The notes below the pieces were generated by a model that saw only the letters and a program-made list of their open reading frames with translations, was not told the DNA's origin and did no database searches. The position numbers and the translations under genes are program-made. Positions 7,266 to 39,453 of a DNA stretch of 56,512 nucleotides are shown here, piece after piece. The DNA lies in contig CAZETV010000002.1 of NCBI GenBank assembly GCA_964514965.1, positions 188,545 to 245,056 on the forward strand. The letters run 5' to 3'. Source of the DNA: Candidatus Hadarchaeota archaeon (GTDB lineage: Archaea > Hadarchaeota > Hadarchaeia > Hadarchaeales > Hadarchaeaceae). Position 1 is the first letter of the stretch, and every line of letters starts with the position of its first letter.

Positions 7266-7266
7266 G

Positions 7267-8174: not shown

Positions 8175-8184
8175 GTAGGTGTGG

Positions 8185-8544: not shown

Positions 8545-8553
8545 GTGGTAAAC

Positions 8554-21437: not shown

Positions 21438-23063
21438 TTAAGTTTTGATTCTTTTAGCGAGAGCTGCTTTGATAAAAGCGCTGAACACTGACGCTGGTCT
21501 AGCTGGTCTTGACTTGTACTCTGGATGAAATTGGGTGGCCAAGAAGAACGGATGCTTTGAGAGTTCTAGAATCTCCATGCGTCTCCTGTCGGGCGATTTT
21601 CCCGAGAAAACTAGCCCAGCTTTGCTTAACTTATCTATATAGCACGGATTAACTTCGTAGCGATGTCTGTGTCGCTCGGAAATTCGCTCGCTTCTGTAAA
21701 TCTTGAAAGCTTTCGTCCCCTTAGTGATACGCACTTCATGCGCTCCGAGCCTCATCGTTCCACCCATCTCTTTGACCTTCTTCTGTTCGGGGAGAAGATC
21801 GATTACGGGGTGAGAAGTTCTAGAATCTATCTCTGCGCTGGCGGCCCGCTTCAAACCCAAGACGTTTCTAGCGAATTCTACGACCGCAAGCTGGAAACCA
21901 AAGCATAAACCTAAGAAGGGTATCGAGTGTTTGCGCGAATAACCTATCGCAGCTATTTTTCCTTCAACCCCCCGCGAACCGAACCCGCCCGGCACAAGGA
22001 CGCCATTGTACGCGGTCAATGTTTCAAGTTTATCTTTGCATTCTTCGTACGTCTCAGCATCTATCCAATCTATCTCGACTCTACAATCGTGCCAACCTGC
22101 AGCGTGCTTAAGGGCTTCATTTATGCTTAAGTAAGTGTCCGCGAACTTGATGTATTTTCCAACCATCGCGATTTTCACAACTCTCTGCGCGCGCTCCATA
22201 CGGTCAACAATTTTTTTCCATCCCTCGAGATTCCTCTCCTTTAGCGGGAGATTTAGCCTTTCCAGTAACTTAGTGCATAGGCCCTCTTTCTCAAGCCAAA
22301 GAGGTACTCTATAAATATTTTCAACATCAGGAGCACTTACCACGGCACCTTCCGGGACGTTGCAGAATAGTGAGATCTTCCGCTTCGCCTCTTCATCGAG
22401 AGGTTTCTCCGCCCTGCAAACGATGACATCAGGTGTTATGCCGATTTCGAGAAGCTCCTTGACCGAGTGCTGGGTGGGTTTGGTCTTTTGTTCGCCCACC
22501 ACATTTAGCACTGGCACCAATGTGACATGAACGAAAATCACGTTAGTCTGTCCTTCCTCAAGCCTCAACTGCCGAACAGCCTCAAGGAAAGGCATACTCT
22601 CGATATCTCCCACCGTGCCCCCAATTTCAACCAAGCAAATGTCTGCTCCGCTTTTCTTCGCGACTTGCCGAATGCGATTTTTGATCACATCGGTGACGTG
22701 AGGGATTATCTGAACCGTACGACCCAAGTAGTCGCCTTTTCGCTCTTTCCTTATTACCTCGTCATAAATCTGCCCAGTTGTGATATTGTGATCTTTTGTC
22801 AGATTGATGTCTAGGAAACGTTCATAGTGCCCCATGTCCAAATCTATCTCGCCTCCATCCTCAGTCACGAAAATTTCACCGTGCTCAAAAGGGTTCATAG
22901 TCCCCGCGTCGACATTTAGATAAGGATCGATTTTGATTGCTGTGATTTCAAATTTGCACGATTGAAGTAGCTTTCCTATCGAGGCCGCGGTTATACCTTT
23001 CCCAAGACCGCTAATCACCCCGCCAGTAACGACGATATATTTCATCCGCTCACCTACGTACAT
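21438..23063 (-). CDS. pyrG: CTP synthase (glutamine-hydrolysing).
   Basis: [24 protein letters not shown]... plus C-terminal class I GATase (GLCFGFQ). Confidence 0.95.
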
Positions 23064-23151
23064 CCAATATTTTCCTTTACGCTTTTAAATCCATAAATAT
23101 CGAGGCAATGTTTGATGGTGCACCACACATTTTTTCTCCAACCACATAAAA

Positions 23152-24660
23152 TCACGAAGTTTCATATATCCTCCCGATTTCCCTCTCTCCCTTATCAAAT
23201 CTAGCTTTCATCTCATCTGCCAGTTTTTGTGCGAGCGCTGTTGGATACCGGCAGGTGAGACAGCCAAGGCAAAGTTCATTCCTCCCCAAACCCGTTGCTT
23301 TGACGAAATTTTCAAGCGATTGATAGTGCACCGAATCTGCCCCGATGATCTTCGCCACTCCGGCCGCATCATTATTCGCCCCAATCAGCTCGCCGAAAGT
23401 CGCCATGTCAATACCATAGAAGCACGGAGATATTATCCGCGGGAAGGTGATATACATGTGCACCTCTTTCGCCCCCGCCTCCCTAATCTTTTTAATCACC
23501 CTACGGCAGGTGTCGCCCCTCACGATAGAATCCTCGACTACTGCAACTCGTTTTCCCTTTATCTCGCGCCCCACATTCAATTTCTTAGTTATTATCGTCT
23601 CGCGCTCTTTGGACTTGACGATGAACGCACGATCCGTCACATAACGGTGCCTCCTCAGTGCCCGTTCCCAAGGGATTCCTGTTTGTTCGTGCAACCCATA
23701 AGTCGCGTCGTCACCGGTCTCTGGTATCGAAACTACGACTTCAGCTTTCTTCGCTATGTCTGGGTCTTCCTTCCCCAGATTCCTCCCGAAAGCTTCCCTA
23801 ATTTTGTACACGGGCTTAGTGCCGTTTAAAACTGAATCAGGTCTAGCAAAATATGCAAACTCAAAACTACAGAAAGCTCGCTTTTCACATTTAACAATCT
23901 GCTCTCGTTTAAAGCCTTCCTTAGACCAAGTCAGCAGTTCACCCGGTTTCACCTCGGACTCATACCGAAAATTATTGATTCTTAGACCAACGTTCTCCGA
24001 GGCCACCGCGAAAACCGCATTGTCCTCGCTGCACCCGTAACAGAGAGGTTTTATCCCCAAAGGATCCCTAAATGCGAAAAAATCTCCATCTTGATTCAAC
24101 CCAATGACGGAAAAAGACCCCTCCACTTCTCGCATACAATCAGATACGGCGGAGGCCAAATCGGAGCCATTCAACCCATGCATCAATTTTTTGGCGATCA
24201 GCTCCACATCCGATGAGGAGGATAGACCCCCAAACTCCGATTTGAACTCCGCCTTGAGCTGTGCGACATTGACGAGGTTACCATTATACGCGAGACCAAT
24301 CTTGGCTTTCGCATCACCCACGATGAATGGTTGGGCATCCCCCCAAAGCCGTTGTTTAGCGTCCCTGCCAGAGGTGACATACCTAACGTGTCCTATGCCA
24401 GTGCTCCCTCCAAGTTTCTTGAATAACCTCTGAATGAGAGGATGTCTTACGGGCGGCAAAAGACCCAGTCCGTGGTGCAGCCTAAACCCTTCGGCGGACG
24501 TGAGGAAACCGTAAGAATGATGCCCACGGTGGTTTTGGGATATCAACCCCCAATAGATATAAGGGATTACCGGTCTGCTATCGAAACTATAGGCTCCGAA
24601 GACTCCACAGGATTCTCCTAGCGAATCAGACATGGCAACAAAGTTAGAGCCAGGCGACAT
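23152..24660 (-). CDS. purF: Amidophosphoribosyltransferase.
   Basis: N-terminal CGVFG Ntn-GATase, PRTase motif VVEDSIVRGDT, C-terminal Fe-S cysteines. Confidence 0.9.
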   Translation of the reverse strand: MSPGSNFVAMSDSLGESCGVFGAYSFDSRPVIPYIYWGLISQNHRGHHSYGFLTSAEGFRLHHGLGLLPPVRHPLIQRLFKKLGGSTGIGHVRYVTSGRDAKQRLWGDAQPFIVGDAKAKIGLAYNGNLVNVAQLKAEFKSEFGGLSSSSDVELIAKKLMHGLNGSDLASAVSDCMREVEGSFSVIGLNQDGDFFAFRDPLGIKPLCYGCSEDNAVFAVASENVGLRINNFRYESEVKPGELLTWSKEGFKREQIVKCEKRAFCSFEFAYFARPDSVLNGTKPVYKIREAFGRNLGKEDPDIAKKAEVVVSIPETGDDATYGLHEQTGIPWERALRRHRYVTDRAFIVKSKERETIITKKLNVGREIKGKRVAVVEDSIVRGDTCRRVIKKIREAGAKEVHMYITFPRIISPCFYGIDMATFGELIGANNDAAGVAKIIGADSVHYQSLENFVKATGLGRNELCLGCLTCRYPTALAQKLADEMKARFDKGEREIGRIYETS

Positions 24661-24663
24661 TTG

Positions 24664-25788
24664 TCATCTCCTTTTATTTTTCAACATCTCAACGAAGCGG
24701 TCAAAAAGGTACTGATTATCCTGCGGTCCTGGGGAGCCTTCCGGATGATATTGCACGGAGAAAACAGGGAGTTCCTCGTGATCGATTCCTTCAACCGTGC
24801 CGTCGTTGCAGTTGATTTTTGTAACTTTGAATCCAGTACCTTGTAGGCTTTCCGCGTCAATCGCAAAACCGTGGTTCTGCGCGGTTATGTGAACTTTCCC
24901 AGTTTGAAGGTCCTTAACTGGCTGATTAGTCCCGCGATGTCCAAACTTGAGTTTAAAAGTCTTCGTTCCAGCAGCCAAAGCCAAAATTTGATTACCCAAA
25001 CATATACCCATAATCGGATATTTTTCCATTAGTTGCCCAACGGTCTTGTGGAGGTGGGTCAAAACCGCTGGGTCACCCGGGCCATTTGATATCACGATGC
25101 CATCTGGCTCCAATGCCTCAATTTGGCTCACGTCCATCGTTGCGGGAACAGCGATTACTGAGAGTCCTCTTTTGACTAGACTTCTGAGGATACTTCTTTT
25201 AACTCCGCAGTCGATGAGCACGATTTTTAACTTACCCCCATTGCCAAATCTGTTTATTTCCTTCCGAGTTGTTTCCCCAACCAAGTCCTGCTCTGAAATG
25301 TCTGGATGCTTCCTAACCTTTTCAAGCAACTCTTCGACATGGGGCTCTTTACCTTCATAAGTAACCATGCCGCATTTCATCGTGCCATATTTTCTAACCT
25401 TGATCGTTAACGCGCGAGTATCCACGCTCATGATGCCAGGAATCTTGAATTCCTCCAAGAACTCTTCGAGCTTTTTTGTTCCCTTCCAATGAGATGGCTC
25501 CTCGCAGAGTTCCCTGAGTACCAATCCCTTAACCCAAATTCTATCTGACTCGAACCAATCGGGATGCACTTTGTAGTTCCCAATCAACGGATAGGTAAAC
25601 ATCAGGATTTGCCCATTGTAAGAAGGGTCCGTCAAAGACTCAACGTAGCCTGTCATCGATGTGTTGAAAACGATTTCACCAAGCGCTTCCCTTTTAGCTC
25701 CTAATCCCGCTCCCCTGAATACTGTTCCATCTTCGAGCACTAGCATCGCTTTAATGTTCTCGCTCAGATTTGAGTGGTGGGATTTCAA
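24664..25788 (-). CDS. carA: Carbamoyl-phosphate synthase small (glutaminase) subunit.
   Basis: LVLEDGTVFRGAGLGA... GICLGNQILALAAG...HGFA. No carB adjacent. Confidence 0.9.
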   Translation of the reverse strand: MKSHHSNLSENIKAMLVLEDGTVFRGAGLGAKREALGEIVFNTSMTGYVESLTDPSYNGQILMFTYPLIGNYKVHPDWFESDRIWVKGLVLRELCEEPSHWKGTKKLEEFLEEFKIPGIMSVDTRALTIKVRKYGTMKCGMVTYEGKEPHVEELLEKVRKHPDISEQDLVGETTRKEINRFGNGGKLKIVLIDCGVKRSILRSLVKRGLSVIAVPATMDVSQIEALEPDGIVISNGPGDPAVLTHLHKTVGQLMEKYPIMGICLGNQILALAAGTKTFKLKFGHRGTNQPVKDLQTGKVHITAQNHGFAIDAESLQGTGFKVTKINCNDGTVEGIDHEELPVFSVQYHPEGSPGPQDNQYLFDRFVEMLKNKRR

Positions 25789-26771
25789 ATTTTTTTCAAC
25801 TCCTTAACAGAGATGAGGCAGTGCGGTGCAAATGTTTCGATCTTGGCTCCGCGTTCTTTCATGATGACAGCGGGTATCAACCCACCAACCATAGAAATTC
25901 CAACTCTGTCCATGCTTACTGGAATACCCAGAATGGCTTCATTGGGCTTACCAAAGGCTAAGATTCCACCCCATCCTTTATCTTTTAGGTTTGAAATCAC
26001 TCGTTGCGTAGCATCCCCCGCAGTCATTGGAAGCTCTCTTAAACCAGCGGTTAACATCCCAGAACCGGTCTTGAGGACGCTATCTATTGAAGTCATGCCC
26101 CTGTAAACGAACACCTCCAGAGGCGGTATTGTTGTTCCATTGTAGGAAATCAGCTCCACGAAGCGGATGGGTTTGTATTTCAAAAATTGAACCAGACCTC
26201 CATAAGTAGGGATTATCGGAATACCTGAGTGCATAAGGACGCCATCTATTGTAAGATTGCAAACGGTAAAAATAGCTATTTGCCCTTTTGGAACGGATAT
26301 TTCGCCATGTTCTTCTCCTTCATCCAACACTTTGATGTAAGGAGCCAACAGGAGATCCTTTTCGTGGAGGGAATCCAAGACCTTGAGAACCCGATCGTGA
26401 AGGGCCTTGTCCACGAAGGAAACATTAGCGACCACCTTTCCTTTATCACTCCTAGGTTCGTAAGTCACAGTATACGCTAAAGATAGGAAACGCGTGGTAA
26501 CGAAGCCCACTCTTTCATAAGCTAACGCCCTGCCAAGCTCTTTTAGTCCCTCCTGAGTTATCGTTCTCCCACTCCGATCATGCCCATGAATGAGACCTCT
26601 AGCTTGTAATAATTGAAGGTGATATCTTATCGCCCTCTCGCTGAGCAGAAAACCTCTTCTCCTCAGTTCTCGGCTAAGCATCGTAGAGCCTAAGGGTTTA
26701 TCATGCCCGCTCAAAGCCTTTAAAATCTCAATCTCCTTCCTGTTGCTCTCGTTCTGCCCAGAATCAAGCAT
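25785..26771 (-). CDS. nrpR: NrpR-like nitrogen regulatory repressor (wHTH plus one NRD/DUF128 domain).
   Basis: ILKALSGHDKPLGSTMLSRELRRRGFLLSERAIRYHLQLLQARGLI... Paralogue of 38452..39453. Heads the nrpR-carA-purF-pyrG string, divergent from glnA. Confidence 0.65.
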   Translation of the reverse strand: MLDSGQNESNRKEIEILKALSGHDKPLGSTMLSRELRRRGFLLSERAIRYHLQLLQARGLIHGHDRSGRTITQEGLKELGRALAYERVGFVTTRFLSLAYTVTYEPRSDKGKVVANVSFVDKALHDRVLKVLDSLHEKDLLLAPYIKVLDEGEEHGEISVPKGQIAIFTVCNLTIDGVLMHSGIPIIPTYGGLVQFLKYKPIRFVELISYNGTTIPPLEVFVYRGMTSIDSVLKTGSGMLTAGLRELPMTAGDATQRVISNLKDKGWGGILAFGKPNEAILGIPVSMDRVGISMVGGLIPAVIMKERGAKIETFAPHCLISVKELKKI

Positions 26772-26807
26772 GCCCTACCCGAAAATCACTACAACCTCTA
26801 CCCTTAA

Positions 26808-26827
26808 ATAGGTAAACGGCTACCTAT
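26808..26827. promoter_or_regulatory. Perfect inverted repeat ATAGGTA-N6-TACCTAT in the 71-bp divergent nrpR/glnA intergenic region. Candidate operator.
   Basis: ataggtaaacggctacctat, 16 nt upstream of the glnA ATG. Confidence 0.45.
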
Positions 26828-26842
26828 TACCGAGGATAGACC

Positions 26843-28171: not shown

Positions 28172-28218
28172 GAATCTGGGGTTTGAAAAGATGAAATCCT
28201 CGGGAAAAAGGTGGAAAA

Positions 28219-29301
28219 ATGAATCGCTATCTGGAAAAAGAAAGAAGTGGCTGTTCCCTTGTGGGGATAATGAACGAACAGGGAAAGAGATTTAGCGGCA
28301 AATTAGTGATAAAATCTATCGCCGTGATGCGCGAACGGGCAAATGGTTTGGGCGCGGGGTTCGCCGGTTATGGTATATACCCCAAATACAGCGATTTTTA
28401 CGCCTTCCATTTGCTGTATGATAACGATAAAGCCAAAGATTTAACTGAGGAATACTTAGAAAAAAATTATCTAATCCAGAAAGACGAAGCCATTCCGTCT
28501 AGGGAAGTAGAGGCAATAAAAAATTCACCCTGTATCTGGCGATATTTTCTAAAGATAAAAGAAGAGAGAAAAGAAGAACGTTGCGACCTTGCTGAAGAAG
28601 ATTTCATTGTCAAAACAGTGATGGACATAAACACCGGCATTGACGGGGCATTTGTATTCTCAAGTGGGAAAAACATGGGCATCTTTAAAGGCGTAGGTTT
28701 TCCTGAAGACATCGGCGCCTTTTACAGGTTGGAGGATTATAAAGGCTACAACTGGATTGCCCACGGGAGATTTCCAACAAACACGGGCGCATGGTGGGGG
28801 GGAGCTCATCCTTTAGGGCTTTTAGATTGGTCTGTGGTCCATAACGGAGAGATTTCATCTTACGGGACAAACAGAAGGTTTTTGCTCAACTACGGATATC
28901 ACTGTGCCCTTTTTACTGACACAGAGGTAATGACATACCTCTTCGACCTGCTGGCGAGAAAACACAAACTAGATTTTGGGGTGATATCAAAAATTCTCGC
29001 CGCCCCATTTTGGGATGAGATAGATAGAGCCCAGAACGGCGAATCTACGTTGGTTAAGGCCCTGCGCATGACTTATAGCAGCGCTCTGGTTAACGGCCCG
29101 TTCTCGGTTATAGTGGGGCGCAACAGGGAATTGGTGGGCCTAAACGATCGCATCAAGTTAAGGCCGTTAGTAGCTGGAAGAAAAGATGATATGCTCTATA
29201 TGTCTAGCGAAGAGTCCGGCATTAGGGAAGTATGTCCTTCGCCTGACAGAGTCTGGGCGCCGAAAGCGGGAGAGCCGGTAATCGGACGGTTGAGGGGGTA
29301 A
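28219..29301 (+). CDS. Archaeal glutamate synthase, glutamine amidotransferase domain protein (GltB domain 1).
   Basis: Class II GATase (Ntn) with the catalytic Cys near the N-terminus ([19 protein letters not shown]). Precedes the FMN domain gene. Confidence 0.7.
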
Positions 29302-29303
29302 AA

Positions 29304-30824: not shown

Positions 30825-30836
30825 GCGGGGATAGAA

Positions 30837-31271: not shown

Positions 31272-31276
31272 AATGA

Positions 31277-32554
31277 ATGACCCACTACGTGATTATCGGA
31301 AACTCGGTAGCCTCCATAGCTGCGGTTGAGGCGATTCGCAATCAGGACAAAGATGGTGCAATAACCATCATCTCCGATGAACCTCACCACGCTTACTCGC
31401 GGCCGCTTATTTCGTACCTACTCGCTGGCAAGGTTTCAGAAGAATCGATGTTATATCGAGATAGAAACTTTTACAAAAAGAATAAGGTCGAGGTTCTCTT
31501 GGGCAAGAAAGCCATCGCCTTAAACCCGAAGAAGAAGTTGATTACTCTCGCTGACAAAAAGAAAATCCATTTCGACAAGCTATTGATTGCAACCGGGGGA
31601 ACTCCGATTCTCCCAAAAGTTAAAGGCAAAAATCTAGACGGTGTCTTCACTTTCACCAAATGGGACGATGCCAAGAAGATTAAGGAGTACATCAACAAAA
31701 ACAAGGTAAAAAAAGTAATCGTAGTAGGAGGCGGGCTAATAGGACTAAAAACTGTCGAAGGCTTGATTGGGCTTAAAGTAAAGGTGAGTATTGTCGAACT
31801 TGCCGACAGGATATTAAGTGCCACTTTCGATAAGAAAGCTTCCAATCTCATAAAGACTTGTTTGAATAAAATGGGTTGTAACGTAATCACCAAAAATACC
31901 GTGACTAAAATCAGGGGCAAAAAGAAAGTAACCAGCGTGATTTTAAAGGATGGATTGAAACTCGATTGCGGCATGGTCATCTTCGCTATCGGCGTTGCTC
32001 CAAACGTAGAGATCGCCAAAGGTACAGATATCGAAATAAATAAGGGTATCCTTGTCGACAACCACATGCAAACTAATATCCCGGACATCTACGCAGCAGG
32101 CGATGTTGTTGAAGGGCTTGATTTTATTACAGGATTAACTCGCCCTATAGCCATTTGGCCAAACGCTTACAAACAAGGCAACATTGCTGGATCCAACATG
32201 GCCGGGGTGCCTAAAGAATACACGGGTAGTTTTGTTATGAACTCGGTTGAACTTTGCAACATACCAACCATTTCGGTGGGATTAACCGACCCCAAAGAGG
32301 ACGGATACGAGGTGCTCGATTATTACGACGAGGAAAATTTAGTATACAGGAAAGTTGTGCTGAAAGGAAACCGGATAGTCGGCGCCATATTTATCAAGAA
32401 TATCGATAGAGCGGGAATTTATACAGGTCTCATCATAGAAAAGGTAGATGTTTCGAGCTTTAGAAATCACCTTCTAGAAGAAGATTTTGGTCTGCTATCT
32501 CTACCCAAAGAGTACAGGAAACACTTAGTTTATGGACCGGGGGTTGAGGTATGA
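31277..32554 (+). CDS. FAD/NAD(P)-dependent pyridine nucleotide-disulfide-family oxidoreductase (probable electron-input subunit of GOGAT).
   Basis: HYVIIGNSVASIAAVEA (FAD Rossmann), VVGGGLIGLK (NAD Rossmann), AAGDVVEG. Confidence 0.75.
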   Translation: MTHYVIIGNSVASIAAVEAIRNQDKDGAITIISDEPHHAYSRPLISYLLAGKVSEESMLYRDRNFYKKNKVEVLLGKKAIALNPKKKLITLADKKKIHFDKLLIATGGTPILPKVKGKNLDGVFTFTKWDDAKKIKEYINKNKVKKVIVVGGGLIGLKTVEGLIGLKVKVSIVELADRILSATFDKKASNLIKTCLNKMGCNVITKNTVTKIRGKKKVTSVILKDGLKLDCGMVIFAIGVAPNVEIAKGTDIEINKGILVDNHMQTNIPDIYAAGDVVEGLDFITGLTRPIAIWPNAYKQGNIAGSNMAGVPKEYTGSFVMNSVELCNIPTISVGLTDPKEDGYEVLDYYDEENLVYRKVVLKGNRIVGAIFIKNIDRAGIYTGLIIEKVDVSSFRNHLLEEDFGLLSLPKEYRKHLVYGPGVEV

Positions 32555-33282
32555 GGATAGATGCGAAGGGGGTTTATTATAAGGATTTAAATGAGCAAAT
32601 CCGCCAAGCCGTCGCTAAAGGGGAAAAGGAAATCATTCTAGACAACATTAACGGACAAAGGTATATCGGTGCTGGGCTAAAGGGTGATATAGATATCAAA
32701 ATTTTTGGGGTTCCGGGAAACGATCTCGCCGCTTTCATGGACGGCCCAACTATAACAGTGTTTGCAAATGGACAAGATGGGGTGGGAAATACGATGAATT
32801 CTGGTAAAATCGTGATTCGCGGAGATGCCGGAGATATATTGGGGTATTCCATGCGCGGGGGGAAGATCTTTGTCAAAGGTGATGTTGGTTACCGCGTGGG
32901 CATACACATGAAGTCTTACAAAGAGGCATATCCTGTTGTGATTGTTGGGGGGCGTGCACAAGATTTCCTTGGAGAGTATATGGCAGGGGGATTACTAGTC
33001 GTTTTAGGACTAGAGAAAGGGGAATCACGGATGACTGGGAACTATGTGGGGACAGGTATGCATGGCGGGGTGATGTACATCCGGGGGAAATTGGAGGATT
33101 ACCAACTTGGGAAAGAAGTGGAGATACTCAAACCCAATGAACAAGACATTAAAATGTTAGATTGTTATTTAGAAGAATACTGTCACGATTTTAATTTAGA
33201 TTTAAATGAGATTTCAAACGAAGAGTTCGTGAAATTAGTACCTCACTCCTACCGCCCCTATGGGAGGATATACGCTTATTGA
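32551..33282 (+). CDS. Glutamate synthase GXGXG (alpha-subunit C-terminal) domain protein.
   Basis: GAGLKGDIDIKIFGVPGNDLAAFMDGPTITVFANGQDGVGNTMNSGKIVIRGDAGD... repeated GXGXG beta-helix. Confidence 0.8.
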   Translation: MRIDAKGVYYKDLNEQIRQAVAKGEKEIILDNINGQRYIGAGLKGDIDIKIFGVPGNDLAAFMDGPTITVFANGQDGVGNTMNSGKIVIRGDAGDILGYSMRGGKIFVKGDVGYRVGIHMKSYKEAYPVVIVGGRAQDFLGEYMAGGLLVVLGLEKGESRMTGNYVGTGMHGGVMYIRGKLEDYQLGKEVEILKPNEQDIKMLDCYLEEYCHDFNLDLNEISNEEFVKLVPHSYRPYGRIYAY

Positions 33283-33310
33283 ATATCTGGTGTTTTCGTT
33301 GAAATCTATT

Positions 33311-34780
33311 ATGAAAATCAAGGATTTCAAAAAGCTAGCAGACCAATTAGATAGACCGTGCATAATACCTCTTATTCACACGGTCGAAGGGTGCGGCGAT
33401 CCAGCTAAAATTTATAATAACCTAAGACGCATACACAACCCATCTTACCTCCTCGAGTCTGCAGAAGGACCTGGTGGGTCAGCTCGCTATTCTATTATAG
33501 GCTGTAACCCACTGCTTCACATCTCCGTGCGCAATGGTACACTCAAGGCTTCAGGTAGAGCAGATGTAGTTAACCTTTCTCAAAAATATGCACGAAAAGT
33601 CGCCAAAGCTGATGCCTTGGACAAGATGAAGGAAGCAATGTTTTTAAAAATTATGGGGCAAGCAACTGAAAGTGTGCCACGCTTTGTGCTCGGGGTGGTT
33701 GGATATGTGGGTTATGATTTAGTGAGATCTATGACCAACATTGGAGCACACGCTCTCGATGACCGTAACCACCCAGATGTTGAGTTCATGCTTGCAGAAG
33801 GGTCCATCACTTTTGACCATCTTAAGCATCAAACTCACTATTGTTCTCTGACTCTATTTACCGAGGAAATCGATGTAGACAGCTACTATGAAAAAGCATT
33901 GTCGAACATCAAAAAACTCAAGGCCATAAAACCAATATCGGCCGAGCCCCAACGGCAAAAAATCGTGACGCGGTCAAATATCTCGAAATCAAAATTTGAG
34001 CATGATGTCAAGGTGGCAAAGCGATACATCCGGGCAGGAGACATAATCCAAGTCGTGCTTTCGAGACGTATCGAGCTGAAGCCCGCGCCCCCGCTCGACC
34101 AGTTTTACATGAATCTCCGAAAAATCAATCCTTCCCCTTACATGTTTTTCCTTGATTTTCCGAATCGTTCTCTGATTGGATCAAGCCCGGAAATCTTGGT
34201 GAAAGTCGATGGCAAAAAAGTATTAACTAGGCCCATCGCCGGCACACGACGTCGGGGCAATAACAAAATCGAGGATATCTCTCTCGAGCGTGACCTCCTC
34301 GGAGACGAGAAGGAGCGAGCCGAACACATCATGCTTGTCGATTTAGGAAGGAACGACATCGGCCGCATCTCAGAGTATGGCGCCGTTAAGGTAACTGATT
34401 TCATGGAGGTCGAAAAGTACAGTCATGTCCAGCACATAGTTTCGAATGTTGTTGGGCGAATGAGACCAGAGAAAGACGCTTTTGATGCATTACGTGCGAC
34501 TTTCCCTGCCGGCACGGTGACGGGAGCGCCGAAAGTTAGGGCAATGGAGATAATTGATGAACTCGAACCCACGCGACGAGGCATCTATGCTGGAGCAGTC
34601 GGATCCTTCAGCTATAGCGGTCATGCTGACCTCGCGATAACCATCAGGACCATGGTGGCAGAGCGAGGCAGAGGTTATATCCAAGTAGGCGCTGGCATCG
34701 TTGCAGATTCTATACCGTGGAAAGAACACTACGAAACTGAAAACAAAGCACAGGCGCTTTTGCGTGCGGCGGGTGTTTAA
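33311..34780 (+). CDS. trpE: Anthranilate synthase component I.
   Basis: LESAEGPGGSARYSIIG, chorismate-binding C-terminus GAVGSFSYSGHADLAITIRT. The track ORF starts 17 codons upstream. Confidence 0.9.
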   Translation: MKIKDFKKLADQLDRPCIIPLIHTVEGCGDPAKIYNNLRRIHNPSYLLESAEGPGGSARYSIIGCNPLLHISVRNGTLKASGRADVVNLSQKYARKVAKADALDKMKEAMFLKIMGQATESVPRFVLGVVGYVGYDLVRSMTNIGAHALDDRNHPDVEFMLAEGSITFDHLKHQTHYCSLTLFTEEIDVDSYYEKALSNIKKLKAIKPISAEPQRQKIVTRSNISKSKFEHDVKVAKRYIRAGDIIQVVLSRRIELKPAPPLDQFYMNLRKINPSPYMFFLDFPNRSLIGSSPEILVKVDGKKVLTRPIAGTRRRGNNKIEDISLERDLLGDEKERAEHIMLVDLGRNDIGRISEYGAVKVTDFMEVEKYSHVQHIVSNVVGRMRPEKDAFDALRATFPAGTVTGAPKVRAMEIIDELEPTRRGIYAGAVGSFSYSGHADLAITIRTMVAERGRGYIQVGAGIVADSIPWKEHYETENKAQALLRAAGV

Positions 34781-35350
34781 GTGCGCGTTACGGTGATTGA
34801 CAACATTGATTCATTCGTCTATAACCTTGTGCAATACATCGGGGAGCTAGGAGCGGAACTCCGAGTTTTCACGAACGATGTATCACTCCGTAAGATCATC
34901 GATGAAAATCCAGATAAAATTGTCATTTCTCCAGGCCCCAAGACTCCCGAAGTTGCTGGCGTATCAATCGATGTGATTAAGGAATTTAGCGGCAAAGTCC
35001 CGATTCTTGGGGTATGCCTTGGTCACCAAGCGATTGGCTATGCATTTGGAGCAAATATCGTCCCAGCAAAACGATTGATGCACGGCAAAACTTGTTTTAT
35101 TGAGCACGATGGTAGTGAACTCTTTAAAGGAGTGCCGAATCCATTTGAGGCAACACGCTATCATTCTCTAGCGGTCGACCGTGCAACGTTACCGTCCTGC
35201 TTACGCATAACGGCTGAAACTTCCGATGAGCATCACGAAATAATGGGAATAAAACACGCGGAACATCCAACTTTTGGGGTACAATTTCACCCGGAGTCGA
35301 TACTGACCACACATGGGAAGCTCATGATAAAAAATTTCATCAAGCTATGA
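34781..35350 (+). CDS. trpG: Anthranilate synthase component II (GATase).
   Basis: VIDNIDSFVYNL, GVCLGHQAIG, HPES triad. GTG start abutting the trpE stop. Confidence 0.9.
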   Translation: MRVTVIDNIDSFVYNLVQYIGELGAELRVFTNDVSLRKIIDENPDKIVISPGPKTPEVAGVSIDVIKEFSGKVPILGVCLGHQAIGYAFGANIVPAKRLMHGKTCFIEHDGSELFKGVPNPFEATRYHSLAVDRATLPSCLRITAETSDEHHEIMGIKHAEHPTFGVQFHPESILTTHGKLMIKNFIKL

Positions 35351-35403
35351 GATGTATAGTAATGCAAAAAACTCGAACGGAAAATAAGTGGTAGTGTGTT
35401 CAG

Positions 35404-36177
35404 ATGTTAACGAAACGAATCATCCCCTGCCTCGATATGCGCTGGGGGCGTGTTGTCAAGGGTGTCAAGTTCAAGCAACTACGTGATGCGGGCGATCCAG
35501 CTGAGCTAGCACATTGGTATGACGAACAAGGCGCCGATGAGGTGGTGTTCTTGGATATCGGAGCATCACCAGAGGGGAGGGAAACTATGTTTGAAGTGGT
35601 CAAGCACACAGCCAAACAACTATTTATCCCACTAACAGTTGGCGGCGGCATTAATTCGCTCGATCATATCAACCGCATGCTCAAGTCAGGGGCGGACAAG
35701 GTGGCGATAAATACTGCTGCAGTTGAGAGCCCTGAACTGGTACGTGAGTCGGCGGAGAAGTTTGGGAGCCAGTGCATCGTCATCGCTATAGACGCCAAGA
35801 GTATCGGAGAGCGAAAGTGGGAGGTTTACACTTATGGCGGCCGCAAGCCAACCGGCGTGGATGTATTGGAATGGGCCAGACAAGTCGAGTCATTAGGAGC
35901 AGGCGAAATTCTGCTTACGAGCATGGACGCCGATGGCACGAAAGCCGGTTATGATTTAGAACTCACCAAAACTGTAGCTAACGCGGTTAACATACCAATC
36001 ATCGCTTCGGGCGGCGCTGGCAATCCTCAACACATTTGCGAGGTTCTTACGACTACTGGAGCAGACGCTGCTTTAGCCGCTGGCATTTTTCATTTCGGCG
36101 CTTATTCTATCGGCGACGTTAAAAGTTACTTGCGCGAACAAGGCGTTCCTGTGAGGTTGTGGGTGAGGCAAAAATGA
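35404..36177 (+). CDS. hisF: Imidazole glycerol-phosphate synthase cyclase subunit.
   Basis: [32 protein letters not shown]. Confidence 0.95.
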
Positions 36178-36779
36178 CCCGAATAGCAATCGTTGACTAT
36201 GGTGTCGGCAATCTGCATAGCATCCGGCGTGGCCTCGACCTAGCTGGTGCTCAAACCAAAATCACAAATGAACCCGATGAAATCGCTGCAGCTGATGCCA
36301 TCGTGCTCCCAGGAGTCGGGGCATTCAAGAGTGCAATGCAGGAGCTTGGGGCTAATCTCGATATCATCAAACAAGCTACTTCTGCAGGCAAGCCTTTATT
36401 GGGTATTTGTTTGGGCATGCAACTATTGCTGGCTCGGAGTGAGGAAGGCGGCAACACAGAGGGCTTAGGACTCATTCCCGGCAAGGTGGTCAAGCTACCG
36501 CGTACTCAAAAGGTGCCGCATATGGGCTGGAATTCTTTAGAAGTTAAACGCGAACACCCATTCTTGGTGGACGTTCAATCTGGCGCCCAAATTTACTTTG
36601 TGCATTCCTATCTCGTGCAGCCTGAAGACGAAAAATCTGTTATCGCGACTAGCACTTACGGTATCGAATTCCCCGCTATTGTGGCACAGGGCACAGTGAT
36701 TGGGACACAGTTTCACCCAGAAAAAAGCGGAAGGGTCGGATTACAAATGCTTAAAAATTTTGTTATGATGGTAGAATAA
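36174..36779 (+). CDS. hisH: Imidazole glycerol-phosphate synthase glutaminase subunit.
   Basis: [33 protein letters not shown] overlap with hisF. Confidence 0.9.
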
Positions 36780-36803
36780 AGGGCAGCCACCCAAAATGAG
36801 GAT

Positions 36804-38354
36804 ATGTTTATGAAAACCGATGCAATCATTGTAGTTGATTTTGGCGGGCAATATTGTCACCTGATAGGAAGAAGGGTTAGGGAGTACAAAGTTTACTCCG
36901 AAGTAGTGCCATATGATGTAACCCCCGAAGAAATCAAAGCACTCAACAAAAAGTTCAATGTTAAGGGGATAATCCTATCTGGCGGACCGTCTAGCATTCA
37001 CGAAGAAAACGCTCCTAAATGTAGTCGAGAAATTTTAGAATTGAACATTCCAATCTTAGGTTTATGTTACGGACACCAGCTCATCGCTCATTTTTCTGGG
37101 GGGGAAGTAAAAAGAGCGGACAAGAGGGAGTATGGAATAACAATTGTTATAATCGATAAGCCAATTGGAGTCCTAAAGGGATTAGATGATAAAGAAAAAG
37201 TCTGGATGAGCCACGGTGATACTGTTTACACGCTTTCACAAGAATACGATATCCTCGCACACACTGAAAATTGTCCTGTAGCTGCATTCAAGCATAAGGA
37301 GGAGCCCATTTACGGTCTACAGTGGCATCCCGAAGTTATCCATACTGAGAAAGGAGGAAAAATGCTAGAAAATTTCATCTTCGAAATCTGCAAATGCCAA
37401 GCGAATTGGAAGATGGAAGATTTCGTGAAAAAATCCATCCAAGAAATAAAACAGGTAACAGGTAATAAAAAAGCTATAATCGCTTTAAGCGGGGGTATCG
37501 ACTCTAGCACGGCTACAGTATTGGCCGCAAAAGCCATGGGGAAGAACTTAACTGCAGTCTTCGTTGATCACGGATTCATGAGGGAGGGGGAACCTGAATT
37601 TATCAAAGATACATTTGAAAAATTTGATTTCAACTTCATTGCGGTGGATGCACGGGAAAGGTTCCTGCGAAGATTAAAAGGGATAATAGACCCCGAGCGG
37701 AAAAGGAAGATAATTGGAGAAGAATTCATCAAGGTTTTCGAGGAAGTCGCAAGAGAAGTTGGAGCGGAGTACCTTTTGCAAGGAACGATTTATCCGGATA
37801 GAATCGAATCAGGTTTTAGGAAGTATTCCGACAAAATAAAAACCCACCATAACGTTGCGGGCTTACCAACCAAAATTGAATTTCTTGGAGTAGTCGAACC
37901 GTTAAGGAACCTGTATAAAGATGAAGTAAGGAAGGTTGCAAAAAAGTTGAGATTACCAAACGAAATTATCTGGAGACAACCCTTTCCCGGCCCAGGTTTA
38001 TCCGTGAGAATAATTAATGAGGTAACTCCTGAGAAAATCGAAATAATTAAAAAAGCTGACAAAATAGCGACCGAGGAGATAGAGGAAAGCGGATTGAAAG
38101 AGGATTTATGGCAATATTTCGCTGTTTTGACTGACACCAAAAGTACCGGGGTGAAAGGCGATTCAAGAGCGTATGGTTACACGGTCGCTATCAGAGCCGT
38201 TAAAAGTAAAGAAGCTATGACCGCTAACTTTGCAAAAATCCCTTATGATGTGTTGGAGCGGATTTCTACGAAAATAACAAATGAGATACCAGAAGTTACA
38301 AGAGTTGTATATGATGTCACCCACAAACCACCGGCAACAATTGAATGGGAGTGA
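36804..38354 (+). CDS. guaA: GMP synthase (glutamine-hydrolysing), fused GATase plus ATP-PPase.
   Basis: IIVVDFGGQY, GLCYGHQL, PP-loop SGGIDSS, C-terminal dimerisation KPPATIEWE. Confidence 0.95.
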   Translation: MFMKTDAIIVVDFGGQYCHLIGRRVREYKVYSEVVPYDVTPEEIKALNKKFNVKGIILSGGPSSIHEENAPKCSREILELNIPILGLCYGHQLIAHFSGGEVKRADKREYGITIVIIDKPIGVLKGLDDKEKVWMSHGDTVYTLSQEYDILAHTENCPVAAFKHKEEPIYGLQWHPEVIHTEKGGKMLENFIFEICKCQANWKMEDFVKKSIQEIKQVTGNKKAIIALSGGIDSSTATVLAAKAMGKNLTAVFVDHGFMREGEPEFIKDTFEKFDFNFIAVDARERFLRRLKGIIDPERKRKIIGEEFIKVFEEVAREVGAEYLLQGTIYPDRIESGFRKYSDKIKTHHNVAGLPTKIEFLGVVEPLRNLYKDEVRKVAKKLRLPNEIIWRQPFPGPGLSVRIINEVTPEKIEIIKKADKIATEEIEESGLKEDLWQYFAVLTDTKSTGVKGDSRAYGYTVAIRAVKSKEAMTANFAKIPYDVLERISTKITNEIPEVTRVVYDVTHKPPATIEWE

Positions 38355-38451
38355 CAAATTGAACTTTTAGCCACGAAGCTGAAGATTCAATATGGGAAAA
38401 TTAAATGAGGTCAATGTTACATATGTTTAAACAATTTTTGGGGGAGAACAC

Positions 38452-39453
38452 ATGATAAGCGAAGAGAAAGTTCAGAGGCTAGTGTTTGAGATTTTACGAA
38501 TCCTTAAAGAAAAAGAACATGATGGGCCAGTGGGCGCACGGACGATAGCCAGGGAGCTAGGTAAAAGAGGATTTAAAATAGGAGAAAGAACAGTACGTTA
38601 TCACCTAAGACTACTCGATGCAAAAGGATTTACCAAAAAGATAGGTTCACTAGAAGGGAGGCTCCTCACAGAAGAGGGTAAAGAAGAGATAAAACACACT
38701 CTTGTTGGTAAACGCGTTGGTTTCGTTATTGGAAAAATTGAGGAACTCATCTACAGAATGAGTTACAACCTCAAAAGTGAGAGAGGCACCATAATCGTTA
38801 ACATTTCTTTACTGGATGCGAGGGAACTTAAAAAAGCGCTTGCTATAATGAAAAAAGTTATCGGTGCAGGGTATGCCTCTAGCCCTTTAATTAAAGTAGC
38901 TCATGAAGGGGAGAACATAGCGGAGGTTAGCGTGCCTAAGGGAAAGATTGGCATAGCCACTATGTGTAGCATTACTATTGACGGGTTGTTGACGAAGGCA
39001 GGCGTTCCTGTATCCCCAAAATTTGGTGGAGTTTTAGAAATCGAAAATCGAGAACCAAAAAGATTTACCGATGTTATAACCTATCAGGGGTCTTCGTTGG
39101 ACCCTCTTGAGGTTTTTGCGTCCAGAAAGATGACCTCATACTTAAATGTGGTAAAAATGGGGTCTGGTAGAATACTCGCTAATCTTAGGGAAATTCCCAT
39201 GCTCGCGAGAGATTCTGCCCAAGATATCATAAACCAAGCTAAAAGGAATGGATTAAATGGTGTTTTGGTTATGGGCGCCCCAGGTGAATCTTTGTATGGG
39301 CTCCCCGTTGATGTGAACCGAGTGGGCATAGTAATCTTAGGTGGAATTAATCCAATGACAGCGGTTGAAGAAAGTGGCATCGCAATTGAAACAAAACCTA
39401 TGGAAACGACATTAGATATTGCAGAAATGCAGCTTATTCAAAAATGGATGTAA
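38452..39453 (+). CDS. nrpR: Second NrpR-like regulator (wHTH plus NRD/DUF128).
   Basis: ILKEKEHDGPVGARTIARELGKRGFKIGERTVRYHLRLLDAKGF... Paralogue of 25785..26771, about 35% identity. Confidence 0.65.
   Translation: MISEEKVQRLVFEILRILKEKEHDGPVGARTIARELGKRGFKIGERTVRYHLRLLDAKGFTKKIGSLEGRLLTEEGKEEIKHTLVGKRVGFVIGKIEELIYRMSYNLKSERGTIIVNISLLDARELKKALAIMKKVIGAGYASSPLIKVAHEGENIAEVSVPKGKIGIATMCSITIDGLLTKAGVPVSPKFGGVLEIENREPKRFTDVITYQGSSLDPLEVFASRKMTSYLNVVKMGSGRILANLREIPMLARDSAQDIINQAKRNGLNGVLVMGAPGESLYGLPVDVNRVGIVILGGINPMTAVEESGIAIETKPMETTLDIAEMQLIQKWM

What the first reader, a model, noticed from the sequence alone, without database searches (positions are those of the whole stretch)
21438..39453. 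Supercluster of glutamine-amidotransferase genes bracketed by two NrpR-like regulators
Within 17 kb sit pyrG, purF and carA on one strand, and glnA, a three-part archaeal GOGAT (GATase, Fd-FMN, GXGXG) with its ferredoxin and flavoprotein partners, trpEG, hisFH and guaA on the other. Every enzyme here makes or consumes the glutamine amide nitrogen. NrpR-like genes sit at 25785 (heading nrpR-carA-purF-pyrG) and at 38452 (closing the plus-strand run). This looks like a glutamine-centred regulon organised physically, and is far denser than usual. carA lacks an adjacent carB.
Basis: partly seen in the sequence, partly recalled or inferred. Interest (0 to 1): 0.65.

Follow-up and report, generated by a model that had tools for sequence, protein, structure and literature searches.

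The report
NrpR-linked glutamine enzyme supercluster, Hadarchaeota
In an uncultured subsurface archaeon (Hadarchaeota), the genes that make glutamine and seven enzyme systems that spend its nitrogen sit in one 18-kb block around a single nitrogen-repressor binding site, which suggests that supply and demand for glutamine are switched together.

Summary
The organism is a Hadarchaeota archaeon (EF-1alpha 90% identical to Hadesarchaea DG-33). The 71-bp nrpR1/glnA control region holds one TATA element, 33 nt from each start codon, overlapped by a perfect palindrome, AATAGGTA-N6-TACCTATT. This is a symmetric variant of the canonical NrpR operator GGAA-N6-TTCC. The same extended motif sits at promoters of nrpR- and GOGAT-linked operons in seven other loci: 9 exact matches in 2.28 Mb against about 0.5 expected, 8 of them at or beside such operons. 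The full arrangement is shared by a ~90% relative, which additionally carries nadE, glnK and amt. An operator-GOGAT-hisF-trpEG-hisH-nrpR2 operon exists in a 78% relative. Other lineages gather different amidotransferases around glnA/GOGAT. The two NrpRs belong to different clades (39% identity) with different operator variants (GGWA versus GGCA). I infer a 2-oxoglutarate-responsive operon set organised by shared substrate rather than by pathway. Regulation itself is untested, and carB could not be located. This is a new variant of a known regulatory system; interest 0.6.

The parts
21438..23063 (-). pyrG, glutamine-hydrolysing CTP synthase. It is the last gene of the leftward string. An 88-nt gap with a TATA-like TTTAAAA precedes it, so it may also have its own promoter.
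   Evidence: TIGR00337 822 bits (cutoff 463) and PF06418 + PF00117. Gap sequence. An nrpR1-pyrG neighbourhood also occurs in a distant Bathyarchaeia genome, L082.
23152..24660 (-). purF, amidophosphoribosyltransferase of the B. subtilis type, with an N-terminal propeptide before the catalytic Cys18.
   Evidence: Full-length alignment with PDB 1AO0, E 1.8e-78. TIGR01134 scores 330 bits, slightly below its cutoff of 350.
24664..25788 (-). carA, the glutaminase small subunit of carbamoyl-phosphate synthase, with no carB next to it. The probable true start is Met15 (25746).
   Evidence: TIGR01368 497 bits. N-terminus inspected. No carB in the window.
25785..26771 (-). nrpR1, an NrpR-family regulator (winged HTH + one NRD) of the clade common in Bathyarchaeia. 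It is the first gene of the leftward string.
   Evidence: PF08461 7.8e-19 and PF01995 2e-77. Nearest named relatives are Bathyarchaeia at ~63%. It is 39% identical to NrpR2. Clade-specific HTH and wing residues are shown.
26772..26842 (.). 71-bp divergent control region. It has a single TATA-like element, TTAAATA (26804-26810), exactly 33 nt from both start codons.
   Evidence: Sequence and distances. No other A/T-rich box lies in the region. Its role as a shared bidirectional promoter is inferred.
26807..26828 (.). NrpR-type operator AATAGGTA-AACGGC-TACCTATT (core GGTA-N6-TACC). It overlaps the 3' end of the TATA box and lies 14 nt before the glnA ATG.
   Evidence: It is the only perfect TAGGTA-N6-TACCTA site in the window. 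The half-sites are conserved in L091 while the flanks have diverged. The same extended motif sits at promoters in L177, L173, L175, L127, L128 and L152. The canonical consensus is GGAAN6TTCC (PMC2723118).
26843..28171 (+). glnA, type I glutamine synthetase. It is the first gene of the rightward string.
   Evidence: TIGR00653 557 bits; PF00120 + PF03951.
28219..29301 (+). Split glutamate synthase, glutaminase (GATase_2) subunit.
   Evidence: PF00310 2.5e-09. The gene order is conserved in many GOGAT loci.
29304..30824 (+). Split glutamate synthase, Fer4 + FMN (Glu_synthase) subunit.
   Evidence: PF01645 1.1e-145 plus Fer4 domains.
30837..31271 (+). 4Fe-4S dicluster ferredoxin-like protein, part of the five-gene GOGAT module.
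   Evidence: PF13247 3.4e-17. It co-occurs with GOGAT in bacterial and archaeal loci.
31277..32554 (+). Pyridine-nucleotide-disulfide-type flavoprotein, the presumed NAD(P)H electron-input partner of GOGAT.
   Evidence: PF07992 8.6e-62 and PF18267. It co-occurs with GOGAT. The electron-donor role is inferred.
32551..33282 (+). Split glutamate synthase, GXGXG subunit.
   Evidence: PF01493 2.2e-33.
33260..34780 (+). trpE, anthranilate synthase component I (probable start 33311), separated from the other trp genes.
   Evidence: PF00425 + PF04715. TIGR00564 and TIGR01820 score 509 and 507 bits, a few bits below their cutoffs. The junction with GXGXG is conserved in L093 and L176.
34781..35350 (+). 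trpG, the glutamine amidotransferase of anthranilate synthase.
   Evidence: TIGR00566 230 bits (cutoff 121).
35404..36177 (+). hisF, the cyclase subunit of imidazole glycerol phosphate synthase, separated from the other his genes.
   Evidence: TIGR00735 386 bits (cutoff 295).
36159..36779 (+). hisH, the glutaminase subunit of imidazole glycerol phosphate synthase (probable start 36174).
   Evidence: TIGR01855 251 bits.
36804..38354 (+). guaA, fused glutamine-hydrolysing GMP synthase.
   Evidence: NF000848 717 bits.
38452..39453 (+). nrpR2, an NrpR-family regulator of the Hadarchaeota/MSBL1 clade. It lies behind a 97-nt gap with a TATA-like GTTTAAAC and is followed by a T5 run.
   Evidence: PF08461 6.1e-21 and PF01995 4.5e-94. 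3NEK match at 1.7e-32. Nearest named relatives are MSBL1 at 78% and Hadarchaeota at 72%. Gap sequence.

Best explanation
This is a nitrogen-status-controlled supraoperon organised around one metabolite, glutamine, in a Hadarchaeota archaeon.

Two divergent transcription units share a 71-bp control region with one TATA element and one NrpR operator (AATAGGTA-N6-TACCTATT).
- Rightward: glnA, a five-gene ferredoxin/flavoprotein-linked split GOGAT, trpEG, hisFH and guaA, followed by nrpR2 on its own promoter.
- Leftward: nrpR1, carA and purF, and probably pyrG.

Proposed mechanism, by analogy with characterised NrpR proteins:
- When fixed nitrogen is plentiful, 2-oxoglutarate is low. An NrpR oligomer sits on the operator between the TATA box and the start site and blocks transcription in both directions. 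NrpR2 is the more likely binder, because its clade is the one associated with GGWA-type operators.
- When nitrogen runs short, 2-oxoglutarate rises and NrpR is released. The cell then raises glutamine synthesis (GS), glutamate regeneration (GOGAT) and the amounts of the glutamine-dependent entry enzymes of purine, pyrimidine, arginine, tryptophan, histidine, GMP and CTP synthesis together, so that flux is held when glutamine is scarce.
- Basal expression of the essential enzymes would come from leaky repression or from internal promoters in the 47-, 53- and 88-nt gaps.

Shown here: the gene identities, NrpR family membership, the operator-like palindrome with its conservation and enrichment, the tight gene spacing, and conservation of the cluster in relatives.

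Inferred: which NrpR binds, the 2-oxoglutarate response, co-transcription, use of the TATA box in both directions, and the physiological logic.
For: - Gene identities.
- NrpR membership.
- Operator in the window: a unique perfect palindrome in the divergent promoter, overlapping the TATA box and 14 nt from the glnA ATG.
- Footprint: the half-sites are retained in the ~90% relative L091 although the surrounding intergenic DNA has diverged.
- Shared promoter: nearly identical promoter-operator sequence (cttaaaTAGGWAAAMGGYTACCTAttRcc) precedes the L177 GOGAT-hisF-trpEG-hisH-nrpR2 operon and the L173 operon that ends in nrpR2.
- Enrichment: exact TAGGWA-N6-TWCCTA occurs 9 times in 2.28 Mb against about 0.5 expected, and 8 of the 9 are at or beside nrpR, GOGAT or glnA operons.
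- Link to the known system: the motif contains or mimics the experimentally defined consensus GGAAN6TTCC, and glnA is a classical NrpR target (PMC2723118; PMC9765008).
- Operon structure: gaps of -23 to 53 nt and no T5 run inside either string. T-runs occur only after purF, after pyrG, before nrpR2 and after nrpR2.
- Conservation and recurrence:
  - L091 + L176 carry both arms plus nadE, glnK and amt.
  - L093 keeps the GXGXG-trpE junction.
  - L177/L178.
  - L113 has guaA-amt-glnK-RHH divergent from glnA-GOGAT-hisHF.
  - L082 has nrpR1 followed by pyrG.
  - Bacterial L164 has hisHF inside the GOGAT operon, with amt, glnK, glnA and two asnB genes nearby.
Against: - Only one operator was found for 16 genes. 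The bare 4+4 core occurs at chance frequency in the window (4 against 3.7 expected).
- Complete repression of essential genes (pyrG, purF, guaA) would be lethal, so control must be partial, or there are internal promoters that I could not demonstrate.
- In characterised methanogens nrpR is not nitrogen-regulated, and the regulon contains assimilation and transport genes only. Extending it to biosynthetic amidotransferases has no precedent.
- Relatives with NrpR2 at 83% (L173) and 72% (L175) lack the amidotransferase extension.
- In L091 the gene to the right of the operator is not glnA but a small Cys-rich gene, so the junction is fluid.
- There are no expression or binding data.
Confidence: 0.6

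Rival explanations
1. NrpR controls only the classical part (glnA and GOGAT). The amidotransferase genes have drifted next to it and are read mainly from internal constitutive promoters, so the clustering reflects loose co-expression or shared chromosomal context rather than a single regulon.
For: - Gaps of 47 nt (before the GOGAT glutaminase gene), 53 nt (before hisF, with a TATAGTAAT-like stretch), 88 nt (before pyrG, with TTTAAAA) and 97 nt (before nrpR2) could hold promoters.
- In L175 the operator-controlled operon is just nrpR2 plus GOGAT.
- The known NrpR regulons hold assimilation genes only.
Against: - trpE starts within 28 nt of, or overlaps, the GXGXG stop. No gap separates trpE from trpG, and 24 nt separate hisH from guaA, so at least trpEG must be read through from GOGAT.
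- In L177 hisF, trpEG and hisH sit between the operator-controlled GOGAT and nrpR2 with short gaps.
- nrpR1, carA and purF are essentially contiguous.
Confidence: 0.22
2. The block is a compositionally foreign or recently shuffled island whose content is a historical accident of gene transfer and rearrangement, without selective meaning.
For: - GC3 of the 16 cluster genes is 0.48, against 0.62 for 19 other genes in the window (p = 3e-5).
- nrpR1 is of the Bathyarchaeia type.
- The five-gene GOGAT module is 72-80% identical (FMN subunit) to loci that look bacterial.
- The complete arrangement was seen only in relatives at about 83% identity or more. There is a four-gene indel between the window and L176.
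Against: - Chance cannot place 14 glutamine-linked enzyme genes in a row.
- The same theme recurs with different gene sets and orders in L177, L113, L127, L082 and bacterial L164, which points to repeated selection.
- The promoter and operator are conserved across loci whose GOGAT type differs.
- Ribosomal-protein and EF-1alpha genes also have lowish GC3 (0.49-0.58), so the dip may reflect expression level.
Confidence: 0.08
3. The genes are clustered so that their products are made together and assemble into a physical glutamine-channelling complex (GS handing glutamine to the amidotransferases), with regulation secondary.
For: Known heteromeric pairs are adjacent and often overlap (trpE/trpG, hisF/hisH, the GOGAT subunits). 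carA is separated from carB yet sits next to other glutaminase-type genes.
Against: - No evidence for contacts between different amidotransferases.
- Gene order is shuffled among relatives (window against L177 and L113), which argues against order-dependent assembly.
- A regulator and an operator are the conserved elements.
Confidence: 0.05

Closest known systems
Methanococcus maripaludis NrpR repressor with nif/glnA operators (GGAA-N6-TTCC), released by 2-oxoglutarate
   Same: - Same protein family (winged HTH + NRD, PF01995).
- glnA is a target.
- The operator is an inverted repeat with a 6-nt spacer, sitting next to the TATA box.
- The core matches GG-A-N6-T-CC.
   Different: - The proteins here have one NRD (~330 aa) rather than two (~540-560 aa, as in the methanogen hits P0173 and P0185).
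- The operator core is GGTA/TACC with extended TA..TA flanks.
- nrpR1 itself lies directly at the operator, whereas methanogen nrpR is not nitrogen-regulated.
- The genes behind the operator include trpEG, hisFH, guaA, carA, purF and pyrG, none of which is in the M. maripaludis regulon.
- The organism is a non-methanogenic Hadarchaeon.
Methanosarcina mazei NrpRI/NrpRII pair
   Same: Two NrpR paralogues in one genome. NrpRI is the single-NRD, HTH-bearing type, like both proteins here. One paralogue binds DNA while the other contacts TBP (PMC3960522). This gives a precedent for a division of labour between paralogues.
   Different: - Here both paralogues carry a complete winged HTH.
- They belong to clades associated with different operator variants (GGWA against GGCA).
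- They flank one gene cluster.
- Whether they interact is unknown.
glnA + split (archaeal-type) GOGAT operons with ferredoxin and flavoprotein genes, widespread in Clostridia, Spirochaetes, Methanothrix and others
   Same: The five-gene module GATase_2 / Fer4-FMN / Fer4_11 / Pyr_redox_2 / GXGXG occurs in the same order, often with glnA and sometimes pyrG or purF within 10 kb (L006, L022, L034, L012, L018).
   Different: None of the 80 loci from the genome scan has trpEG, guaA or carA fused to the operon, and none except L027 has an nrpR beside it.
Classical supraoperons (for example the Bacillus subtilis aro-trp-his supraoperon; from my own knowledge, not checked here)
   Same: Many biosynthetic genes from several operons are read as overlapping transcription units.
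   Different: Those are organised by pathway, and whole pathways are present. Here only the glutamine-using step of each pathway is present, and the rest of each pathway is elsewhere. The organising principle is the shared substrate.

Membership tests
NrpR family of nitrogen repressors (both nrpR1 and nrpR2) | N-terminal winged helix-turn-helix DNA-binding domain | tested here: met
   PF08461 E 7.8e-19 (NrpR1, residues 14-79) and 6.1e-21 (NrpR2, residues 13-80). The ERxxRYH recognition-helix motif is invariant across clades.
NrpR family of nitrogen repressors (both nrpR1 and nrpR2) | NrpR regulatory domain (NRD, former DUF128) | tested here: met
   PF01995 full-length matches, E 2e-77 and 4.5e-94. 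NrpR2 residues 88-326 align with the MJ0159 NRD structure 3NEK, E 1.7e-32. There is one NRD per protein.
NrpR family of nitrogen repressors (both nrpR1 and nrpR2) | Palindromic operator GGAA-N6-TTCC at target promoters | tested here: inconclusive
   The canonical sequence is absent from the window. A symmetric one-base variant, GGTA-N6-TACC with extended arms, lies in the nrpR1/glnA promoter. Related loci have TAGGAA-N6-TTCCTA at equivalent positions, and exact matches are enriched about 18-fold. Binding itself was not tested.
NrpR family of nitrogen repressors (both nrpR1 and nrpR2) | DNA binding relieved by 2-oxoglutarate | not testable with these tools
   This needs a gel shift or footprint with purified protein, with and without 2-oxoglutarate. 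The paper on induction-deficient mutants was not in the library. A Cys in the C-x-x-T-[ILV]-DG motif is invariant in the alignment (C171), but I could not map it onto the published mutants.
NrpR regulon as defined in Methanococcus maripaludis | Targets are nitrogen assimilation and transport genes (nif, glnA, glnK-amtB, mod, an alanine symporter) | tested here: not met
   glnA is present behind the operator, but so are GOGAT, trpEG, hisFH and guaA, with nrpR1-carA-purF-pyrG running divergently. None of these is in the published regulon. Hence a variant regulon.
Split archaeal-type glutamate synthase | Separate polypeptides for the glutaminase, FMN/Fe-S and GXGXG domains of GltB | tested here: met
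   PF00310, PF01645 (+Fer4) and PF01493 lie on three adjacent ORFs. The same module is found in many loci.
Methanosarcina-type NrpRI/NrpRII two-protein system | One paralogue binds DNA; the second bridges to TBP/TFB | not testable with these tools
   Two paralogues are present at 39% identity, and both have an HTH. No interaction data are available. The precedent is described in PMC3960522.

The most novel reading that the evidence does not exclude
Hadarchaeota run a 'glutamine budget' regulon. A single 2-oxoglutarate-sensing switch co-transcribes glutamine supply (GS/GOGAT) with the first glutamine-consuming step of nearly every major biosynthetic branch. This would be an operon logic based on a shared substrate instead of a shared pathway. 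Two NrpR paralogues with distinct operator specificities (GGWA-N6-TWCC for the Hadarchaeota clade, GGCA-N6-TGCC for the Bathyarchaeia clade) are wired into it as a cascade or a hetero-oligomer, and the operator-proximal nrpR1 is itself under nitrogen control.
Probability: 0.3. Interest if true: 0.75.

Novelty: new variant of a known kind. Interest (0 to 1): 0.6.

Why it matters
Operons are normally explained by shared pathway or shared complex. Here only the glutamine-dependent step of seven different pathways has been pulled out and placed beside glutamine synthetase, GOGAT and two nitrogen repressors. The theme recurs with different gene sets in relatives.

If one 2-oxoglutarate-responsive switch does control the block, this would be a clear natural example of regulation organised around a metabolite's supply and demand. 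It would also extend the NrpR regulon well beyond nitrogen assimilation.

It gives a first concrete handle on gene regulation in Hadarchaeota, a largely uncultured subsurface phylum: a defined operator, two candidate repressors and a testable target set. It also suggests that NrpR clades have diverged in operator specificity at a single half-site position.

Tried and rejected
1. Canonical GGAA-N6-TTCC search of the window: no match. This first looked like evidence against NrpR control, until the GGTA variant and its relatives were found.
2. The 4+4 core GGWA-N6-TWCC alone is uninformative (4 against 3.7 expected). Matches with up to one mismatch to the 12-base motif are not enriched either (20 against 14-19 in shuffles). 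Only exact extended matches carry signal.
3. The genome-contig scan with the GOGAT FMN subunit returned mostly bacteria and methanogens, because that protein is too conserved. I used it as an outgroup control.
4. I first took the organism for a Bathyarchaeon from the NrpR1 hit names. EF-1alpha and NrpR2 show it is Hadarchaeota.
5. I first treated the metagenome loci with 60-67% GXGXG identity as relatives. Several look bacterial: Shine-Dalgarno sequences and terminator-like leaders in L096-L098 and L112, an NtrC-type gene in L125, and an L10 leader in L164. They count only as independent recurrences.
6. A second, Bathyarchaeia-type operator (CGGCA-N6-TGCCG) was sought in the window. Only a degenerate CGGCT-N6-TACCG copy (26817-26832) overlaps the main palindrome, and it is not conserved in L091. 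I rejected it as unsupported.
7. The sigma-70 promoter and hairpin terminator scan is at or below chance and does not apply to an archaeon.
8. Rfam found no riboswitch or leader in the cluster or in the Hadarchaeota-type loci.
9. Literature searches found no paper linking NrpR with Hadarchaeota or Bathyarchaeota, and none describing a glutamine-amidotransferase supercluster.
10. carB could not be located.

Full report
**What is there.**
- The minus strand carries nrpR1 (25785-26771), carA, purF and pyrG (down to 21438).
- The plus strand carries glnA (26843), a five-gene split glutamate synthase module (GATase_2, Fer4+FMN, Fer4_11 ferredoxin, Pyr_redox_2 flavoprotein, GXGXG), trpE, trpG, hisF, hisH, a fused guaA and nrpR2 (to 39453).

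The PurF call falls just below its NCBIfam cutoff. It still aligns end to end with B. subtilis PurF, including the catalytic Cys that follows a propeptide. Both regulators have a winged HTH plus one NrpR regulatory domain (PF01995, E 2e-77 and 4.5e-94). The NrpR2 domain aligns with the solved MJ0159 NrpR structure. The two are only 39% identical.

Nothing else in the 56.5-kb window belongs to the arginine/pyrimidine, purine, tryptophan or histidine pathways. So only the glutamine-using step of each pathway is here, and carA indeed lacks carB.

**Organism.**
Two tRNA genes contain introns, which points to an archaeon. EF-1alpha (54074-55318) is 90% identical to 'Hadesarchaea archaeon DG-33' and 89% to a Hadarchaeaceae MAG.
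- NrpR2's nearest named relatives are MSBL1 (78%) and Hadarchaeota (72%).
- NrpR1's nearest named relatives are Bathyarchaeia at about 63%.

The host is therefore a Hadarchaeon that carries one native-type NrpR and one Bathyarchaeia-type NrpR. No paper in the library connects NrpR with either phylum.

**Control region.**
The nrpR1/glnA intergenic region is 71 bp. Its only A/T-rich box, TTAAATA (26804-26810), lies exactly 33 nt from each start codon. Overlapping it is a perfect palindrome, AATAGGTA-AACGGC-TACCTATT (26807-26828), which is unique in the window.

The canonical NrpR operator GGAA-N6-TTCC (PMC2723118) is absent from the window. The palindrome is its symmetric one-base variant, GGTA-N6-TACC.

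Three lines of evidence indicate a real operator:
1. In L091, a relative with 92% identical NrpR1, the intergenic DNA has diverged but the half-sites are intact.
2. The same extended motif, with GGAA or GGTA cores, lies just upstream of operons that contain or adjoin nrpR, GOGAT or glnA in L177, L173, L175, L127 (twice), L128 and L152. The four Hadarchaeota-type promoters are alike even in the spacer (cttaaaTAGGWAAAMGGYTACCTAttRcc).
3. Exact TAGGWA-N6-TWCCTA matches number 9 in 2.28 Mb of fetched DNA, against about 0.5 expected from base frequencies. Eight of the nine are at or beside such operons.

Weaker versions of the motif are not informative.

**Operon structure.**
Gene spacing within each string runs from overlaps to 53 nt. 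Runs of T occur only after purF, after pyrG, before nrpR2 and after nrpR2. This fits three units: glnA to guaA, nrpR2 alone, and nrpR1-carA-purF with pyrG either read through or also served by its own promoter. Co-transcription is inferred from spacing only.

**Conservation.**

| Locus | Relatedness to the window | Arrangement |
|---|---|---|
| L091 + L176 (one sample) | 85-95% amino-acid identity | nrpR1-carA-purF-pyrG-rpL18e-rpL13; GXGXG-trpE-trpG-hisF-hisH-guaA, then an RHH-domain gene, a glutamine-dependent nadE, convergent glnK-amt, then nrpR2 |
| L093 | GXGXG 83% | keeps the GXGXG-trpE junction |
| L177/L178 | NrpR2 78%; hisF, trpE, trpG, hisH 73-86% | operator, a different (ACT-domain) three-gene GOGAT, a small RAM-domain protein, hisF, trpE, trpG, hisH, nrpR2 |
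| L175 | NrpR2 72% | nrpR2 heads a bare GOGAT operon |
| L173 | NrpR2 83% | nrpR2 ends an operon of GltD-like and Fe-S genes |

The window differs from L176 by a clean four-gene indel. So the GOGAT/His/Trp/NrpR2 association is older than the window's genus. The addition of glnA, guaA and the leftward nrpR1-carA-purF-pyrG arm was seen only in the closest relatives.

Independent recurrences of the theme:
- L113 has guaA-amt-glnK-RHH divergent from glnA-GOGAT-hisH-hisF.
- L082, a Bathyarchaeon, has nrpR1 followed by pyrG.
- L164 and its kin have hisH and hisF interleaved with the GOGAT genes, next to amt, glnK, glnA and two asnB genes. L164 is bacterial, as shown by an L10 leader and rplJ.
- nadE lies beside GOGAT in several bacterial-looking loci.
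- In the outgroup scan the five-gene GOGAT module is common, but none of the 80 loci has trpEG, guaA or carA attached.

**Two NrpR clades, two operator variants.**
Loci with Bathyarchaeia-type nrpR1 orthologues carry a different extended palindrome, ATCGGCA-N6-TGCCGAT, at the promoters of nrpR1 or of adjacent GOGAT-type genes (L082, L085, L087, L089, and L092 with one mismatch). All variants fit GGNA-N6-TNCC and differ at one half-site position.

The clades also differ in the HTH and wing:
- NrpR1 clade: LSERAIRYHL...GHDRSGRTIT.
- NrpR2 clade: IGERTVRYHL...GSLEGRLLT.
- Methanobrevibacter: LGERAVRYHM.

The window has no convincing GGCA-type site. I therefore think NrpR2 is the more likely occupant of the palindrome, which would put nrpR1 under NrpR2 control. 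This is inference. M. mazei gives a precedent for two cooperating NrpRs (PMC3960522).

**Mechanism proposed.**
This is by analogy with characterised NrpRs.
- With low 2-oxoglutarate, NrpR sits on the operator. The site lies between the TATA box and the start site for glnA, and over the BRE side of the same TATA box for nrpR1.
- Nitrogen limitation raises 2-oxoglutarate and releases NrpR.
- The result is a joint rise in GS, GOGAT and the glutamine-dependent entry enzymes of purine, pyrimidine/arginine, CTP, GMP, Trp and His synthesis. That would keep fluxes up when glutamine is scarce.

Because these enzymes are essential, repression must be partial, or internal promoters must supply a basal level.

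**Comparison and novelty.**
- The proteins are members of the NrpR family: the domain criteria are met, the operator criterion is met in variant form, and the effector response is untested.
- The regulon differs from the described ones, which contain only assimilation and transport genes. It also differs in that nrpR1 sits at the operator, whereas methanogen nrpR is not nitrogen-regulated.
- I found no description of a glutamine-amidotransferase supercluster.
- I class it as a new variant of a known kind.

**Rivals.**
- NrpR controls only glnA and GOGAT, with constitutive internal promoters for the rest (0.22).
- The block is an accidental or foreign island (0.08). Its best support is the low GC3 of all 16 genes (0.48 against 0.62, p = 3e-5). 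Ribosomal-protein and EF-1alpha genes are also lowish, however.
- A glutamine-channelling complex (0.05).

**Limits.**
- There are no expression or binding data.
- carB and the remaining pathway genes were not located.
- Taxon labels for many loci rest on a few marker features.
- Motif expectations come from base frequencies and block shuffles.

Noticed in passing
L175 13489-14031; L176 5360-5953; L113 302-838 (minus strand): A conserved ~180-197-aa protein with an N-terminal ribbon-helix-helix domain (orthologues 50-54% identical) sits inside three different glnA/GOGAT/amt clusters. It may be a second nitrogen regulator. The window has no copy.
   Followed up: partly
L173 9694-9933; L177 6115-6360: A stand-alone ~80-aa RAM (AsnC_trans_reg) domain protein, 73-74% identical between the two loci, lies inside the operator-controlled operons close to nrpR2. 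It could be an amino-acid (glutamine?) sensor. It is absent from the window.
   Followed up: partly
L082 9889; L085 9891; L087 11079; L089 4734; L092 1397: Bathyarchaeia-type nrpR1 loci carry a different extended palindrome, ATCGGCA-N6-TGCCGAT, at promoters of nrpR1 or of GOGAT-type genes. This suggests a clade-specific operator variant (GGCA instead of GGAA or GGTA). Several of these loci also have a divergent ~530-aa gene with only a weak Glu_synthase match.
   Followed up: partly
L152, L153, L156, L163, L164: hisH and hisF are interleaved with the GOGAT genes in one operon (fdx-hisH-PyrRedox-GATase-hisF-FMN-GXGXG). L164 is bacterial (L10 leader, rplJ) and also has an OmpR-type regulator, amt, glnK, glnA and two asnB genes nearby. 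L163 has an nrpR homologue, and L152 has a TAGGAA-N6-TTCCTA site.
   Followed up: partly
window 21438-39453 compared with the rest of the window: All 16 cluster genes have lower third-position GC (mean 0.48) than 19 other genes in the window (0.62; Mann-Whitney p = 3e-5). The cause could be foreign origin or expression-linked codon usage; this was not resolved.
   Followed up: partly
window 38355-38451 compared with L176 5404-9442: A clean indel. The closest relative has RHH, a glutamine-dependent nadE, glnK and amt between guaA and nrpR2. The window has 97 nt there. Homology stops right after the guaA stop codon and resumes about 15 nt before the nrpR2 ATG.
   Followed up: yes
L091 1-147; L173 6717-7406: In the ~90% relative, the gene to the right of the operator is not glnA but a homologue of a 229-aa protein with repeated C-x-E-C-E motifs that heads the L173 operon. 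Also, the orthologous nrpR1 start codon in L091 reads ATA instead of ATG.
   Followed up: partly
window 2025-3320 (minus strand); 5621-9653; 13260-14288: A form III-like RuBisCO large subunit, and a gas-vesicle gene set (two GvpL/F genes and an AAA_5 ATPase) flanked by PadR-type regulators. Gas vesicles are unexpected in a subsurface Hadarchaeon.
   Followed up: no
window 40788-40898 (minus strand); 51030-51125 (minus strand): Two intron-containing tRNA genes. The first is found by Rfam only. For the second, ARAGORN cannot assign the anticodon.
   Followed up: no
window 55333-56154 (minus strand): A NAD synthetase-like ORF that has the synthetase domain only, with no glutaminase domain. It is 35% identical to the C-terminal half of the glutamine-dependent NadE of L176. 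So the window's organism may use ammonia for this step, or may encode a glutamine-dependent copy elsewhere.
   Followed up: no
L002-L004, L033, L095-L098, L110, L112, L125: The five-gene GOGAT module of this archaeon is 72-80% identical (FMN subunit) to loci that look bacterial or are labelled as bacterial MAGs. This suggests the module has moved between domains.
   Followed up: partly
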